Shown: positions 17,052 to 20,364 of the stretch, piece after piece
Layout of the letters: every line of letters begins with the position of its first letter
How positions within the stretch are numbered: position 1 is the first letter of the stretch
NCBI RefSeq assembly: GCF_008000775.2
Contig: NZ_CP042905.2
Location: 180,001-212,000 of the forward strand
Direction of reading: 5' to 3'
DNA: 32,000 bases
Origin: Promethearchaeum syntrophicum
GTDB taxonomy: Archaea; Asgardarchaeota; Lokiarchaeia; Sigyniarchaeales; Promethearchaeaceae
Translations under genes and position numbers: made by a program
Notes under the pieces: model-generated
Told to the model about the DNA's origin: nothing
What the model saw: the letters and a program-made list of their open reading frames with translations, nothing else
Databases searched by the model: none

Positions 17052-19511
17052 TTAAGTAAAATAAGCAGAAATTGGTTTTTGAACCTTTGGTTTAAATCGA
17101 GTTTGTGTTCCAGATAGAGTTTCAAGATTTCTTCTAATACTTTCAGGAATTTTATAAGGCAAAAGATTGATTAATGCGCGGACAAGGAGTTCCTTATATT
17201 TTGAGATATCATAGGAGGCATTTTTCATATGATAAATATCAATAGGTAAAACTCGATCTTGAGGATTACGAGCTTTATCTTTAACAATAACAAAGGACAC
17301 TTTTTGTCCCGGGCCTATAGAAACCCCGTGCTTTTCTAAATATCTAGCCGCTATCGCTTGATAGTTTTGCACTTTATATTCATTAAATCGGCGAGTGACA
17401 CGAATAGTTATCGCGAGTTTTTCCGGATTTACACCCCGTGATTCCAAATCACGATAATATTTGAGAAGAACTGGGACAATTTTTGATGATAATAGCCATT
17501 TAGAATTGTCAACAATAGGTGAAGAACTAATCGCTTCAATCATTTCTTGCTGAAATTCTTTGATAAAAGGAGGAGAATCATGTCGTCTTAATTCTATTCC
17601 TCGAACTTTTATCGCCCCGTTTTGTTTTACTCCCCAATATCTGTTCAATGCTCCAACATTAGGATCCGCTTTCGTGGGTAAAAAAGAAATGAATTTAAAA
17701 TAATCATTTTCTGGGTTGTATCTTATCGGAATTAAAGATTTTTGAGTAATTTTTTCTACAACTTCTAAGCATTTTTTTTGAAAGGTTTCATCATCCATTG
17801 AATCTGGAGCTCTTACATAAAGAGAATCTACAATACCATGAATCATAATAAGTCCATGATTCTCACAGATTTTCATCGCTTCAAGCAATAATTCACGAGA
17901 ATACGCGCAAACTGTTTGATGTGCCTCTATACGTCCAAAACGTGCATTTCGAAACCCTAAATATCCAAAACATACAACCAAGATCCATTTTAGTGCTTCT
18001 TCCATTTTTTCATATTTCTTTGATTCATGCTCGTTTTTATTTTTGGATAGGTTTTTATAACTAATTCTCTTAGTTAGCGGAACCCGTAATGATAAAGGCA
18101 CAATCCCCTTTCGCTTAGAACATAAATGGTAATCCAAACCTGGTACTTTATTTTCTGAAGATTCGCAACATTTGCAATTTACTATCTCAGGTGAGACATT
18201 GTACTGAACCATTAACGCAGGATACATTGATGTGAAGTCAATTTCTGCAACTCGTCTAAAAAGCCCAATTTTTGGATTTAGTATGTGCCCACCACGATCA
18301 GTTGAAAGGAGAACTGTGCTTTCTCGAAAATCTTCTGAATTTTTTTTGATATCGGGAATTAAAATTCCTAAAGCATAAGCATGGTAGAATTGAAGTGACT
18401 GTAAAGCACCCCCAATTGTCACTCGTGTCAAACGTTGTAATGGTGAATAAGTTACTCTGGCTACTTCTATTAATCCAAAGAGGTTTCCGTCATCAAAGTG
18501 CAAACCACCATAAATTGCAGAATCAATATGCATCCTTCCATTTAGATAAAACTGTGAATTCGATTTATGATGTACTATCCCATAAGACATAAAAGAATTT
18601 GAACCGTTCTTTAAAAATCGCGTAGATTTCAGCGAAGCTCCATCCCGAGAAAGAGAAAAATGATTTTCAAGGCGTAAATATGAAGCACGAAAGAGAAGAT
18701 AGGGAAAAAGTTCTTCATCACCGTGAGAAGTAAATATAACATCAGGATCGATTTTTTTAATTGCTACCTGTAAAGTAAAGAGCATTTGTCTTTCATTTTT
18801 TCCTTCAATAATAATTTGTGGCCTACCATGCTTATCTGTAACGATTTCCGAAGGTGAAAATAATGAGTTCAGAGATATATTTACACTACACGGATCTACT
18901 GTTAACTTACAATTTTTCAATCGATCGGTTCCTTTTTTTCTCAAACCAAGCTGTTCAACTTCAATTTCTAGCCAAATAACTCTTAAAGGAGGGAATTGAT
19001 ATAGAATAGATTCATTAGAATCATTAAGGATGATAGAATGAACAATTAGATCTGTTTGTTTCTTTTTAAGTTGAAAAGAGCAAAACGCAAATGGGAATAA
19101 TCCAGTTTCATAGAAGAACATCTGAGTTAGGGGTATATCTATGTTATAGAAATTAAACTGCTCGAGCTCTTTTATTTGACGAACTGTTTTTTTGAATTTG
19201 AATGGAGAATCTACTTGAATTCGAATTACTTGAGAAAATTGAGAATCTTCTGCTTTGATACGTCGTTTACATATTACTGCAGATTTAATTTGGGGGTGAG
19301 CTTGCATCGCGTTGATGAATTTTTGATAATCTACATTGTTACTGGTTTTCTTATCATTGAATACTTGTTTTTTTGGAACGATATAAAAAGAAGGTTGAAA
19401 TTCATATATAGCACGAACAACTACTCCATTTTTTTTCTTTAACCAGAGTAGTATCCCCTTTTCATGAACCATTAGATCAATGATCCATGCGTCAAATAGA
19501 ATATCTTGCAT
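17052..19511 (-). CDS. polB: Family-B DNA polymerase, divergent (degenerate 3'-5' exonuclease motifs, non-canonical motifs B and C, C-terminal PIP box)
   Basis: Motif A is EIDFTSMYPALM. The archaeal-type Cys insert reads NCKCCESSENKVPGLDYHLCSKRKGIVPLSL. Motif B region is ALKWILVVCFGYLGF, motif C region is IHGIVDSLYV, and there is a KVRGIELRRHDSP match. The C-terminus is QKPISAYFT. The ATG at 19511 (MQDILFDAWIIDL) is preferred over the GTG at 19523. Confidence 0.9.
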   Translation of the reverse strand: MQDILFDAWIIDLMVHEKGILLWLKKKNGVVVRAIYEFQPSFYIVPKKQVFNDKKTSNNVDYQKFINAMQAHPQIKSAVICKRRIKAEDSQFSQVIRIQVDSPFKFKKTVRQIKELEQFNFYNIDIPLTQMFFYETGLFPFAFCSFQLKKKQTDLIVHSIILNDSNESILYQFPPLRVIWLEIEVEQLGLRKKGTDRLKNCKLTVDPCSVNISLNSLFSPSEIVTDKHGRPQIIIEGKNERQMLFTLQVAIKKIDPDVIFTSHGDEELFPYLLFRASYLRLENHFSLSRDGASLKSTRFLKNGSNSFMSYGIVHHKSNSQFYLNGRMHIDSAIYGGLHFDDGNLFGLIEVARVTYSPLQRLTRVTIGGALQSLQFYHAYALGILIPDIKKNSEDFRESTVLLSTDRGGHILNPKIGLFRRVAEIDFTSMYPALMVQYNVSPEIVNCKCCESSENKVPGLDYHLCSKRKGIVPLSLRVPLTKRISYKNLSKNKNEHESKKYEKMEEALKWILVVCFGYLGFRNARFGRIEAHQTVCAYSRELLLEAMKICENHGLIMIHGIVDSLYVRAPDSMDDETFQKKCLEVVEKITQKSLIPIRYNPENDYFKFISFLPTKADPNVGALNRYWGVKQNGAIKVRGIELRRHDSPPFIKEFQQEMIEAISSSPIVDNSKWLLSSKIVPVLLKYYRDLESRGVNPEKLAITIRVTRRFNEYKVQNYQAIAARYLEKHGVSIGPGQKVSFVIVKDKARNPQDRVLPIDIYHMKNASYDISKYKELLVRALINLLPYKIPESIRRNLETLSGTQTRFKPKVQKPISAYFT

Positions 19512-19512
19512 A

Positions 19513-20364
19513 CTATTTATCACTTTTGTTAAATTTTACTAAATATTTATCAAGAGTTAGATTATGGATATTCTTTGAAAATGCTATTTTTTTTTGCGGG
19601 CTCTGTCGAGATAATGGAGAACTCCAAAATCTTTCCTTTCGATTAGGTAAAAAAGGATGCTGATCCAGTGAATAATCAATATATCTAAGATTTTCATGAA
19701 TTCCTGCAATGATTCCAGAGAAGTGAGACAATATGTGCCCACCTGCAAGACGATTTTCTGATTTTGAATGAAGTGGCCCAGTTAAAATGATAATGGGATT
19801 GAAACGTTCTATAATCTTATTCAAACCAAGAAACATCATCTTTAAATCTTGAAAAGCTTTGGAATTAAGAGAATTTTGCGATACGTAGTTATCGCTTCTC
19901 CCTTTTCTTAACGAACTATCTGACTGAGACGTTTTTTCAAACATTGATGTTATTCCATCAACTAAAACAAGGTTTAATTTATTTTCATTTATGGTTGAAA
20001 GCTTTTCGTAAAGCACTTCCACCATTTGATCCCATGTGAAAATTCTGGAAACGATTATATGTTTAAGTACAGATGACGGATTAAGATGAGTGGAAACGGC
20101 AAGCTTCGAAATCAGATACGGATCAAAACGATTTTCTCCATCAATATATGCGATTAAATGAGAAGATTGCTCTTCATCGTTTTTTTTTAAGGAATTTACG
20201 GCAGTTTTCATCAGTATTGAAGTTAACATTTTTTTAGGACCATAAAGGAAATAAACGGGTCCAGGAACAAAACCTCCTCTAAGAAGGGCATCCAACATTG
20301 GATCTCCGCTACTTAACGGGGAAAATTGCTTGATATCTTCATAATACTCGGATGCTGTGATCAT
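19513..20364 (-). CDS. RadB/Rad51-fold RecA-superfamily paralog with degenerate Walker A
   Basis: LDALLRGGFVPGPVYFLYGPKKMLTSILMKTAV aligns by eye to the RadB consensus LLGGGFxxGxxTxxYGPxxSGKTTL but lacks GK[TS]. IAYIDGENRFDP and the Walker B-like LNLVLVDGITSMF are retained, along with LAGGHILSH. There is no N-terminal HhH domain. Confidence 0.75.
   Translation of the reverse strand: MITASEYYEDIKQFSPLSSGDPMLDALLRGGFVPGPVYFLYGPKKMLTSILMKTAVNSLKKNDEEQSSHLIAYIDGENRFDPYLISKLAVSTHLNPSSVLKHIIVSRIFTWDQMVEVLYEKLSTINENKLNLVLVDGITSMFEKTSQSDSSLRKGRSDNYVSQNSLNSKAFQDLKMMFLGLNKIIERFNPIIILTGPLHSKSENRLAGGHILSHFSGIIAGIHENLRYIDYSLDQHPFLPNRKERFWSSPLSRQSPQKKIAFSKNIHNLTLDKYLVKFNKSDK

What the first reader, a model, noticed from the sequence alone, without database searches (positions are those of the whole stretch)
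17052..20364. Translationally coupled pair of a P-loop-dead RadB-like protein and a motif-degenerate, PIP-box-bearing family-B polymerase: a candidate undescribed DNA damage-tolerance or recombination module
The RadB-like gene's TAG stop (19515..19513) is 1 nt from the polB ATG (19511..19509) and overlaps the alternative GTG start. Both partners look like diverged or partly inactivated versions of core enzymes, which points to a dedicated complex rather than a chance neighbourhood. There are two precedents for recombinase-paralog/polymerase cassettes. In Pyrococcus furiosus, radB lies in the polD (DP1/DP2) operon. In bacteria, the ImuA (degenerate RecA-like)-ImuB-DnaE2 mutasome is a known example. 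To my knowledge a RadB-like/PolB pairing has not been described. The structured element at 16928..17031 and a 76-aa ORF follow on the same strand.
Basis: partly seen in the sequence, partly recalled or inferred. Interest (0 to 1): 0.75.

Follow-up and report, generated by a model that had tools for sequence, protein, structure and literature searches.

The report
PolB2–iRadA translesion polymerase operon lacking PPB2
This gene pair is the already-described archaeal PolB2 "mutasome" cluster (a proofreading-dead family-B repair polymerase plus an ATPase-dead RadA-like partner) in the cultured Asgard archaeon Promethearchaeum syntrophicum; its one unusual feature is that the gene for the third, small subunit (PPB2) is missing from the cluster.

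Summary
A 283-aa Rad51/RadA-fold protein with a dead P-loop (19513..20364, -) ends 1 nt before an 819-aa family-B polymerase (17052..19511, -). That polymerase has motif C DTD->IVD, lost exonuclease carboxylates and a C-terminal PIP box.

The claim that the pairing is undescribed is wrong. This is the PolB2 / inactivated-RadA (iRadA) / PPB2 (arCOG07300) operon of Makarova & Koonin (2013/2014), modelled as a "PolB2 mutasome" by Timinskas et al. (2025). Its Sulfolobus member Dpo2 is an experimentally shown, damage-inducible translesion "extender" polymerase.

The window is P. syntrophicum MK-D1 (PolB 100% identical). In 79 of 80 other Asgard loci PPB2 sits directly upstream of PolB2, and the sister lineage has iRadA-PPB2-PolB2. 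In MK-D1 and its close relatives PPB2 is cleanly absent and iRadA abuts PolB2. Both genes remain under purifying selection (dN/dS 0.14-0.17). Whether PPB2 is encoded elsewhere in the genome could not be settled.

The downstream "structured element" (17031..16928) is real but separate: a C/D-box-sRNA-like gene with a covarying terminal stem. The 76-aa ORF is a conserved small beta-barrel protein, not PPB2. It probably has its own transcription unit.

Verdict: a new member of a known system, of modest interest.

The parts
19513..20364 (-). iRadA: ATPase-dead Rad51/RadA-fold accessory subunit, 283 aa, with no N-terminal HhH domain
   Evidence: Pfam Rad51 3.7e-14. NCBIfam RadA/RadB hits are all far below cut-off. 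phmmer to RAD51/RadA structures gives E 6e-10, with the alignment starting at RAD51 residue 87. AF2 model pLDDT 76; Foldseek top hits RAD51/DMC1/RadA at E ~1e-16, TM ~0.7. 89 homologues, all Asgard.
20218..20244 (-). Degenerate Walker A of iRadA (YGPKKMLTS, res 41-49): the GKT lysine is absent
   Evidence: Alignment to human RAD51 GEFRTGKTQ. The family alignment conserves only G42.
19540..19563 (-). PIP-like C-terminal peptide of iRadA (NLTLDKYL, res 268-275)
   Evidence: T270 and D272 are (nearly) invariant in A1. The pattern [N/T]xT[LI]Dx[WFY][FLV] is present in 65/65 Asgard iRadA C-termini. [quoted passage not shown]
19509..19523 (-). iRadA stop / PolB2 start junction: TAG 19515..19513, 1 nt, ATG 19511..19509; alternative GTG 19523..19521
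   Evidence: Sequence. The same 1-nt junction occurs in relative L014 (stop TAA, A, GTG). The GTGAT upstream of the ATG is a possible partial Shine-Dalgarno; this is inference.
17052..19511 (-). PolB2: exonuclease-dead family-B polymerase with motif C IVD, 819 aa
   Evidence: Pfam DNA_pol_B 6e-31 and DNA_pol_B_exo1 2e-09. 100% identical to the P. syntrophicum protein P0090. 39% identity, E 1e-95, to a Lokiarchaeota PolB2 catalogued by Timinskas et al.. All 28 relatives tabulated carry HGIVDS.
18288..18335 (-). PolB2 loop EDFRESTVLLSTDRGG (res 393-408): FxxA-like motif (F395-R-E-S) followed by the D(K/R) motif (D405 R406)
   Evidence: Conserved in PPB2-linked, PPB2-less and solo PolB2 groups. 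PMC11791011 predicts these two elements to bind iRadA and the PPB2 N-terminal arm. Binding was not tested here.
17823..17840 (-). Motif C HGIVDS (DTD -> IVD)
   Evidence: S. islandicus Dpo2 has IID.
17058..17081 (-). C-terminal PIP box of PolB2, QKPISAYF
   Evidence: Aligns with the KOD PIP QVGLSAWL. A strict Qxx[ILMV]xx[FYW][FYWLIVM] is present in 66/81 Asgard PolB2 C-termini.
16928..17031 (-). Neighbouring, probably independent gene: a C/D-box-sRNA-like structured RNA
   Evidence: Layout: terminal stem; C AUGACGA; D' UUGA; C' AUGACGA; invariant guide UUAUAGUUAC; D CAGA. Inverted repeat. 87% nt identity to L014, where synonymous sites differ by 57%. No conserved ORF. Terminal-stem arms covary in 5 lineages, with the cognate pairing best of 120 permutations. 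Also present in L001 and L013, outside the PolB2/small-ORF context. Rfam gives only weak CD-box hits, E 2-10.
16606..16836 (-). Neighbouring 76-aa conserved protein (small beta-barrel plus C-terminal helix; motif LPxWFLKKNRIIPL); not PPB2
   Evidence: 10 close homologues and 35 clusters at 50% identity. AF2 pLDDT 85. Only weak OB/SH3-like fold matches. No DUF8156 hit and no MGRT motif. Co-occurs with PPB2 in L015. dN/dS 0.24.

Best explanation
The two genes encode the iRadA and PolB2 subunits of the archaeal PolB2 'mutasome', in Promethearchaeum syntrophicum MK-D1.

PolB2 is a family-B polymerase that has lost proofreading and carries Ile-Val-Asp in place of Asp-Thr-Asp in motif C. By homology with Sulfolobus Dpo2, it is most likely an active, damage-tolerance polymerase that extends mispaired or lesion-opposed primer ends (inferred).

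iRadA is a Rad51/RadA-core protein without the N-terminal domain and without a functional P-loop. It is expected to act as a non-catalytic structural subunit, docked on the FxxA-like loop of PolB2 (res 393-398) in the way RadA protomers dock on each other (inferred from published AlphaFold models, not tested here).

Both proteins end in PCNA-interacting peptides, so the complex is probably recruited to the sliding clamp at stalled forks (inferred).

The 1-nt stop/start spacing points to co-translation in near-equimolar amounts (inferred).

The third canonical subunit gene, PPB2, normally lies immediately upstream of PolB2. It has been deleted from this operon in the MK-D1 lineage. PPB2 is either supplied from elsewhere in the genome or dispensable here; this is unresolved.
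For: Identity
- Pfam, NCBIfam and PDB hits.
- 100% match to P. syntrophicum.
- 39% identity, E 1e-95, to a PolB2 in the published catalogue, with an identical motif B/C signature.
- IVD motif in all relatives tabulated.
- Exonuclease carboxylates lost.
- iRadA model matches RAD51/RadA structures, with a dead Walker A.

Linkage
- iRadA-PPB2-PolB2 in L001, L013 and L015, and iRadA...PPB2-PolB2 in L005.
- PPB2 (Pfam DUF8156, N-terminal MGRT) directly upstream of PolB2 in 79/80 GTDB Asgard loci; iRadA upstream on the same strand in 60/80.

Literature
- Operon described (PMC4104785).
- Heteropentamer model, iRadA docking motif and clamp motifs (PMC11791011).
- Dpo2 is active, exo-minus, a mismatch/lesion extender, and damage-induced (PMC8764526).

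Still functional here
- dN/dS of 0.17 (iRadA) and 0.14 (PolB2) against L014, similar to the housekeeping neighbours.
- D405-R406 and F395 are conserved.

PPB2 absent from the locus
- No MGRT ORF.
- No HMM hit in the 32 kb.
- Clean deletion relative to L001.
Against: No experiment exists for any Asgard PolB2.

The published complex model requires a PPB2 trimer whose N-terminal arm inserts between PolB2 and iRadA. That gene is missing from this operon and from the window.

The iRadA C-terminal motif lacks the canonical Gln, so it is a weak PIP.

Complex formation, PCNA binding and translational coupling are all inferred. No multimer modelling was possible with the tools.

The Asgard PolB2s are about 250 aa longer than Sulfolobus Dpo2, so the biochemical properties may differ.
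Confidence: 0.9

Rival explanations
1. Canonical three-component mutasome with PPB2 supplied in trans. The MK-D1 genome still encodes PPB2 at another locus, and the complex is the usual PolB2-iRadA-(PPB2)3. Only the gene order has changed.
For: The PolB2 D(K/R) motif predicted to contact the PPB2 arm is kept in all PPB2-less and solo PolB2s. PolB2 genes with no adjacent partner exist in related genomes (L007-L009), so partners can be unlinked. iRadA itself is usually 0.6-5 kb from PPB2-PolB2 in other Asgard genomes. Extra iRadA+arCOG07300 pairs away from PolB2 are known in haloarchaea.
Against: Neither MK-D1 nor L. ossiferum appeared among the best 80 of 120 PPB2 hits in the species-representative genome scan. 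Forty hits were not shown, and the scan needs exact peptide patterns. PPB2-PolB2 adjacency is otherwise near-absolute (79/80).
Confidence: 0.5
2. PPB2-independent two-subunit variant. The MK-D1 lineage (and separately the L. ossiferum lineage) lost PPB2 altogether, and iRadA-PolB2 functions without it.
For: Clean deletion with a new 1-nt iRadA/PolB2 junction, conserved in L014. At least two independent losses of operonic PPB2 on the PolB2 tree. Both genes remain under purifying selection. Not in the top 80 PPB2 hits. PolB2 alone is active in vitro in Sulfolobus.
Against: Absence from the genome is not shown. The PPB2-contact motif is retained. The published models put the PPB2 arm at the core of the complex.
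Confidence: 0.35
3. One reading: a previously undescribed recombinase-paralogue/polymerase module.
For: The NCBI record names the proteins only 'DNA polymerase domain-containing protein' or hypothetical.
Against: The operon family has been published since 2013/2014 and was analysed in depth in 2025, including Asgard examples.
Confidence: 0.03
4. The polymerase is the organism's replicative PolB and the RadA-like gene is a chance neighbour.
For: Full-length family-B architecture of 819 aa with a PIP box like replicative Thermococcales PolB.
Against: Motif C IVD and lost exonuclease residues. The neighbourhood is conserved with iRadA and PPB2 across Asgard phyla. PolB2-type paralogues are duplicated or solo in relatives.
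Confidence: 0.02
5. The 76-aa downstream protein replaces PPB2 as the small subunit.
For: It lies downstream of PolB2 on the same strand in the PPB2-less loci (window, L014, L004) and is absent from L001.
Against: It co-occurs with PPB2 in L015. It is absent from all 80 other PPB2 loci and from the solo-PolB2 loci. Its fold is different: beta-barrel rather than three helices. It is separated from PolB2 by an sRNA-like gene and a conserved T8 run.
Confidence: 0.05

Closest known systems
Archaeal PolB2 mutasome operon (PolB2/Dpo2 + iRadA + PPB2/arCOG07300): Makarova & Koonin 2013; Makarova et al. 2014; Timinskas et al. 2025
   Same: - Same polymerase family: IxD motif C, dead exonuclease, D(K/R) loop, FxxA-like loop.
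- Same inactive RadA partner, on the same strand.
- C-terminal clamp-binding peptides.
- Orthologous loci in sister lineages have the full iRadA-PPB2-PolB2 order.
   Different: - The PPB2 gene is missing from the operon and from the 32-kb window.
- iRadA is directly coupled to PolB2 (1 nt).
- Both subunits carry PIP-like ends, which the 2025 paper reports as rare. In my Asgard set 49/59 have both if the Gln-less iRadA variant is counted.
- The protein is about 250 aa longer than Sulfolobus Dpo2.
Sulfolobus islandicus / S. solfataricus Dpo2 (experimentally characterised PolB2)
   Same: First Asp of motif C replaced by Ile, and no exonuclease active site. The neighbouring iRadA and PPB2 genes are co-induced by DNA damage.
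   Different: Crenarchaeal and thermophilic, about 555-626 aa with a strongly decayed exonuclease domain. No activity data exist for Asgard enzymes.
E. coli Pol V mutasome (UmuD'2C-RecA) and the ImuA-ImuB-DnaE2 cassette
   Same: Works like these systems: a specialised polymerase bound to a RecA-family protein through a filament-type interface, clamp-tethered, for damage tolerance.
   Different: The polymerase families differ (Y and C versus B). RecA in Pol V is the active recombinase, not a dedicated dead paralogue. There is no homology between the small subunits.
Eukaryotic Pol zeta (Rev3-Rev7-Pol31-Pol32)
   Same: A B-family, exonuclease-inactive, multisubunit 'extender' TLS polymerase. The analogy is drawn in PMC11791011.
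   Different: The accessory subunits are unrelated, and no orthology is claimed.
   Same: A short RadA paralogue lacking the N-terminal domain, encoded next to a polymerase gene.
   Different: RadB keeps an intact P-loop. The window protein scores 42 and 27.6 bits against RadB equivalog cut-offs of 172 and 278, and it associates with PolB2, not PolD.

Membership tests
PolB2 (archaeal family-B group 2, Dpo2-like) | Family-B polymerase and exonuclease-domain architecture | tested here: met
   PF00136 at 6e-31 and PF03104 at 2e-09. Thermococcales PolB structures at E ~1e-42.
PolB2 (archaeal family-B group 2, Dpo2-like) | First Asp of the motif C DxD replaced | tested here: met
   HGIVDS versus KOD YSDTDG. 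The same is seen in all 28 relatives tabulated. S. islandicus has IID.
PolB2 (archaeal family-B group 2, Dpo2-like) | Exonuclease active-site residues lost | tested here: met
   Exo II D215 -> Leu, Exo III Tyr/Asp not in register, Exo I D141 -> Glu. The Exo I site is not conserved in the catalogued Loki PolB2. Enzymatic loss was not assayed.
PolB2 (archaeal family-B group 2, Dpo2-like) | Conserved D(K/R) loop motif preceded by a Rad51-oligomerisation-like (FxxA-type) segment | tested here: met
   F395-R-E-S ... D405-R406, conserved in 84 Asgard PolB2s. Spacing to motif C is about 155 residues, against about 148 in S. islandicus. The structural role was not tested.
PolB2 (archaeal family-B group 2, Dpo2-like) | Sequence relatedness to catalogued PolB2 rather than PolB1/PolB3 | tested here: inconclusive
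   39% identity, E 1e-95, to MBD3351474-row PolB2 from the Timinskas supplement. One homologue is named 'Inactivated B2-family' by its source. No explicit tree with PolB1/PolB3 outgroups was built.
PolB2 (archaeal family-B group 2, Dpo2-like) | Operon link with an inactivated RadA homologue | tested here: met
   Adjacent in the window. Conserved in relatives.
PolB2 (archaeal family-B group 2, Dpo2-like) | Operon link with PPB2 (arCOG07300 / DUF8156, N-terminal MGRT) | tested here: not met
   No PPB2 in the operon or in the 32 kb. It is present in the sister lineage L001 and in 79/80 other Asgard loci. The rest of the genome was not examined.
PolB2 (archaeal family-B group 2, Dpo2-like) | Damage-inducible TLS extender activity | not testable with these tools
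   Known only for Sulfolobus Dpo2.
iRadA (inactivated RadA of PolB2 operons) | Rad51/RadA ATPase-core fold | tested here: met
   Pfam Rad51. Foldseek matches RAD51/DMC1/RadA at E ~1e-16, TM 0.67-0.70.
iRadA (inactivated RadA of PolB2 operons) | Lacks the N-terminal helical (HhH) domain | tested here: met
   Residue 2 aligns to RAD51 residue 87. No N-terminal domain in the model.
iRadA (inactivated RadA of PolB2 operons) | ATP-binding residues replaced | tested here: met
   The GKT of Walker A is replaced by a gap plus LT. Only G42 is conserved family-wide. The Walker B Asp (LVLVDG) is retained.
iRadA (inactivated RadA of PolB2 operons) | Binds PolB2 through the oligomerisation-type interface | not testable with these tools
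   No multimer prediction was available. Predicted in PMC11791011.
   TIGR02237 gives 42 bits against a cut-off of 172.4. NF006861 gives 27.6 against 278. RadA models score higher, at 60 bits. The P-loop is dead.
PPB2 (tested for the 76-aa ORF) | About 90-aa three-helix protein with N-terminal MGRT and a DUF8156 match | tested here: not met
   No Pfam hit. It starts MRIYGN. The AF2 model is a beta-barrel. There is no PPB2-HMM hit.
C/D-box sRNA (tested for the element at 16928..17031) | C (RUGAUGA) and D (CUGA) boxes next to a terminal stem | tested here: inconclusive
   The window has AUGACGA and CAGA. The boxes are canonical in relatives: L014 AUGAUGA; L004 UGAUGA and CUGA; L001 CUGA. The terminal stem covaries.
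C/D-box sRNA (tested for the element at 16928..17031) | Guide of 10-12 nt upstream of box D, complementary to rRNA | tested here: inconclusive
   The invariant UUAUAGUUAC is complementary to GUAACUAUAA, which occurs in E. coli 23S rRNA. It lies in the helix 69 loop by my own knowledge. No Asgard 23S was available to check.
C/D-box sRNA (tested for the element at 16928..17031) | Match to a curated Rfam C/D family | tested here: not met
   Nothing at gathering score. Only CD-box hits at E 2-10.

The most novel reading that the evidence does not exclude
In the two cultured Asgard lineages (P. syntrophicum MK-D1 and, independently, Lokiarchaeum ossiferum) the PolB2 mutasome may have become a PPB2-free, two-subunit enzyme. 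In this reading a directly co-translated iRadA-PolB2 pair is tethered to PCNA through both C-termini. That would show that the PPB2 trimer, placed at the heart of the published model, is dispensable. It would also give a natural, culturable test case for what PPB2 does.
Probability: 0.3. Interest if true: 0.45.

Novelty: new member of a known kind. Interest (0 to 1): 0.25.

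Why it matters
The PolB2 mutasome is the main route of damage-induced mutagenesis in Sulfolobus, and it is so far understood only from that genus plus in-silico models.

This locus shows that the system is present and under selection in the first cultured Asgard archaeon. 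Here it is in a stripped-down gene arrangement that lacks PPB2. If PPB2 is truly absent, MK-D1 and L. ossiferum would be natural experiments on the role of the small subunit.

Otherwise the finding is ordinary: a known operon with a lineage-specific rearrangement.

The by-products are small additions to Asgard annotation, not discoveries about the module:
- a conserved C/D-box-like sRNA that probably targets the 23S helix 69 loop
- a small beta-barrel protein family restricted to Lokiarchaeia

Tried and rejected
**1. The 76-aa ORF as PPB2 or its replacement.** Rejected. It has no MGRT motif and no DUF8156 match, it has a beta-barrel fold, and it co-occurs with PPB2 in L015.

**2. Context of distant members of the 76-aa family.**
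- A narrower alignment found only 3 short close-relative contigs.
- Proteins from the search of protein representatives cannot be looked up, so the wider genomic context of this family stays unknown.

**3. PPB2 elsewhere in the MK-D1 genome.** The single genome-contig scan returned only the best 80 of 120 hits. MK-D1 and L. ossiferum are not among them. This is suggestive, not conclusive.

**5. The structured element as a protein-coding ORF.** Rejected: no frame is open in all four close relatives.

**6. The structured element as a repeat or MITE.** Rejected: it is single-copy in the window and found only at orthologous positions.

**7. Whole-intergenic fold z-score.** It was only -1.65. The support for structure comes from covariation, not from energy.

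**8. Sigma-70 promoter and terminator scans.** Uninformative for an archaeon.

**9. Timinskas supplement.** I searched for MK-D1 and for PPB2-less operon classes. Nothing was found in the stored, truncated text.

Full report
**1. What is in the sequence**

On the minus strand, a 283-aa ORF (19513..20364) is followed by an 819/823-aa ORF (17052..19511/19523). The junction reads TAG (19515..19513), one base, ATG (19511..19509). An in-frame GTG at 19523..19521 overlaps the upstream stop. The window has about 28% G+C. Its polymerase is 100% identical to a protein of Promethearchaeum syntrophicum MK-D1, the first cultured Asgard archaeon.

**2. The upstream protein**

- It matches Pfam Rad51 (3.7e-14). 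It matches the NCBIfam RadA, Dmc1, Rad51 and RadB models, all far below their cut-offs: RadA 60 bits against 259, RadB 42 against 172.
- Against solved structures the best hits are RAD51 and RadA (E 6e-10). The alignment begins at RAD51 residue 87, so the N-terminal HhH domain is absent.
- The Walker A GEFRTGKTQ corresponds to GPKKM-LTS, so the lysine is gone.
- A 13-sequence family alignment conserves only the first glycine of the P-loop.
- An AlphaFold2 model (pLDDT 76) finds RAD51, DMC1 and RadA filament structures at E ~1e-16 and TM ~0.7.
- The C-terminus carries a conserved N/T-x-T-L-D-x-[WFY]-[FLV] peptide (NLTLDKYL here).

**3. The polymerase**

Pfam finds the family-B polymerase and exonuclease domains. 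I aligned the family to KOD polymerase. It shows:

| Feature | KOD | Window protein |
|---|---|---|
| Motif A | Asp and steric-gate Tyr | kept |
| Motif B | KxxxNSxYG | KWILVVCFGYLG |
| Motif C | DTD | IVD |
| Exo II | catalytic Asp | Leu |
| Exo III | YxxxD | out of register |
| Exo I | DIE | EIE |
| C-terminus | PIP box QVGLSAWL | QKPISAYF |

All 28 relatives tabulated have HGIVDS.

**4. This is a known system**

- Makarova et al. 2014 (PMC4104785) describe predicted operons of "inactivated" PolB2, an inactivated RadA-family ATPase and the small alpha-helical arCOG07300. The association was first noted in 2013.
- Timinskas et al. 2025 (PMC11791011) rename the partners iRadA and PPB2. They model a PolB2-iRadA-(PPB2)3 heteropentamer. 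[quoted passage not shown] They also report clamp-binding motifs in PolB2 or, more often, in iRadA.
- Their supplement lists Lokiarchaeota and Heimdallarchaeota operons of type "iRadA-PPB2-PolB2". One Loki PolB2 has the motif string ALKWILVVSFGYLGF...HGIVDSMWL, against the window's ALKWILVVCFGYLGF...HGIVDSLYV. Its N-terminal 399 residues are 39% identical to the window protein (E 1e-95).
- The window protein has the corresponding F395-R-E-S and D405-R406 elements, conserved across 84 Asgard PolB2s.
- Sulfolobus Dpo2, which has IID in motif C, is a robust, exonuclease-free polymerase specialised in extending mismatched and lesion-opposed termini. It is required for damage-induced mutagenesis, and all three operon genes are damage-induced (PMC8764526).

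**5. Conservation and the one unusual feature**

PPB2 corresponds to Pfam DUF8156 and starts with MGRT.

A scan of GTDB species-representative genomes with a PPB2 alignment returned 80 Asgard loci, the best of 120 hits.
- PolB2 lies 9-32 nt (by HMM-hit ends) downstream of PPB2 in 79 of them.
- iRadA is upstream on the same strand in 60. It is usually separated by inserted genes, with a median gap of 1.8 kb.

In the window's own subclade the genes are contiguous: iRadA-PPB2-PolB2 in L001, L013 and L015.

The window has no PPB2.
- There is no MGRT ORF.
- There is no hit with a 4-sequence HMM or with an 85-sequence HMM run without filters (best E 0.46) anywhere in the 32 kb.
- Alignment to L001 shows a clean excision between the iRadA stop and the PolB2 start.
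- A 70-75% identical relative (L014) has the same 1-nt junction.
- L. ossiferum also lacks PPB2 at this locus, with a 72-nt gap.

In a neighbour-joining tree, window+L014 is sister to the PPB2-containing L001 (98% bootstrap). L. ossiferum groups with "solo" PolB2 paralogues that have neither partner adjacent (96%). Operonic PPB2 was therefore lost at least twice.

The PPB2-less genes are not decaying. Against L014, dN/dS is 0.17 for iRadA and 0.14 for PolB2. The neighbouring HIT and shikimate-kinase genes give 0.08-0.16.

I could not determine whether PPB2 exists elsewhere in the MK-D1 genome. MK-D1 and L. ossiferum are not among the 80 hits shown, but 40 hits were hidden and the scan depends on exact peptide patterns. 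The D(K/R) motif predicted to contact PPB2 is retained. This mildly favours PPB2 in trans, but it could reflect other constraints, since KOD has YEGG at that site.

**6. Clamp motifs**

A strict PIP box is present in 66/81 Asgard PolB2 C-termini. The Gln-less variant is present in 65/65 iRadA C-termini, and both occur in 49/59 paired loci. The 2025 paper reports "rarely both" but concedes that weak motifs may have been missed. This is a nuance, not a contradiction.

**7. The downstream features**

*The structured element (17031..16928, -)*

- It is 87% identical to L014, where synonymous sites differ by 57%.
- It holds no conserved ORF and is single-copy.
- It is recognisable in L004, L015, L001 and L013.
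- Its layout is: terminal stem, AUGACGA, 12 nt, UUGA, a roughly 20-nt hairpin, AUGACGA, the invariant UUAUAGUUAC, CAGA, terminal stem. This is the layout of a C/D-box sRNA. The boxes are canonical in relatives (AUGAUGA and CUGA).
- The terminal-stem arms differ in sequence in five lineages but stay complementary. Cognate duplexes average -9.6 kcal/mol against -3.5 for non-cognate ones, and the cognate assignment is the best of 120 permutations.
- The invariant guide is complementary to GUAACUAUAA, which occurs in E. coli 23S rRNA. By my own knowledge this is the helix 69 loop.
- Rfam gives only weak CD-box hits.
- The element also occurs in L001, which has no small ORF, and in L013, far from PolB2. 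I therefore read it as an independent gene, not part of the module.
- A conserved T8 run follows it (16872..16849). By my own knowledge, oligo-T runs act as archaeal terminators.

*The 76-aa ORF (16606..16836)*

- It is a genuine conserved protein, with 35 clusters at 50% identity.
- Its dN/dS is 0.24.
- The model is a confident small beta-barrel plus helix, with only weak OB/SH3-like matches.
- It is neither PPB2 nor a substitute for it, because it co-occurs with PPB2 in L015.
- It probably has its own transcription unit. This is inference.

**8. Verdict**

The locus is a new member of the known PolB2-iRadA(-PPB2) system, in a derived PPB2-less gene order.

How it most likely works:
- Shown here: the identities of the two proteins, their motifs, their linkage and purifying selection on both.
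- Inferred: iRadA and PolB2 are co-translated and form a complex through the FxxA-like loop. The complex is recruited to PCNA through the C-terminal peptides and extends primer termini opposite lesions.
- Open: whether PPB2 is required and where it is encoded.

Noticed in passing
window 16928..17031 (-); also L001:7450-7575, L004:8440-8560, L013:8780-8885, L014:5810-5925, L015:6490-6600: A conserved non-coding element with the layout of a C/D-box sRNA. It has a covarying terminal stem and an invariant 10-nt guide (UUAUAGUUAC) complementary to the 23S rRNA GUAACUAUAA (helix 69 loop). No Rfam family matches it. It tracks the HIT-gene side of the locus rather than PolB2.
   Followed up: partly
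window 16606..16836 (-): A 76-aa protein family restricted, as far as seen, to Lokiarchaeia (35 clusters at 50% identity). The model is a confident small beta-barrel with a C-terminal LPxWFLKKNRIIPL motif. Function is unknown. It always lies between PolB2 and the HIT gene where present.
   Followed up: partly
L007:4001-6430, L008:4001-6430, L009:4001-6466: 'Solo' PolB2 paralogues with the IVD motif but no adjacent iRadA or PPB2, sitting between pyruvate:ferredoxin oxidoreductase and MOFRL genes. L009 comes from the L. ossiferum enrichment sample, so that organism probably has two PolB2 genes.
   Followed up: partly
window 20341..20364 (-), iRadA residues 1-8: The iRadA N-terminus MITASEYY aligns to the RAD51 polymerisation motif F86-TTATEFH, with Met/Ile in place of Phe. 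The larger Asgard clade starts with F-x-S-G-F. iRadA may therefore keep a remnant of its own oligomerisation peptide, which could dock on RadA or on another iRadA.
   Followed up: no
L015:6964-7281: In one relative, a 105-aa protein with the MGMT/ATL DNA-binding domain (PF01035) follows the small ORF downstream of PolB2. This is a second DNA-damage-related gene in the neighbourhood.
   Followed up: no
window 11753..13105 (+): A 450-aa ORF with a DDE transposase domain (PF01609, 1.6e-05). It coincides with the only G+C bump in the window (0.365 at 12001-13000) and is probably an insertion sequence.
   Followed up: no
window 20612..25412 and the orthologous loci L001, L004, L014: The flanking synteny is conserved across Lokiarchaeia: shikimate kinase, a zinc-ribbon membrane protein, Roadblock/LC7 and an aSelB-like GTPase on one side; HIT, NIF3 and ThyX on the other. 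None of the damage-response neighbours reported for other PolB2 operons (Orc1/Cdc6, SRAP, DUF72) was seen.
   Followed up: partly
L016-L095 (GTDB Asgard loci): In most Asgard genomes iRadA is not adjacent to PPB2-PolB2. It lies 0.2-5 kb upstream on the same strand with unrelated genes inserted (for example radical SAM and a small GTPase in L005). Only the PPB2-PolB2 pair is invariantly contiguous.
   Followed up: partly
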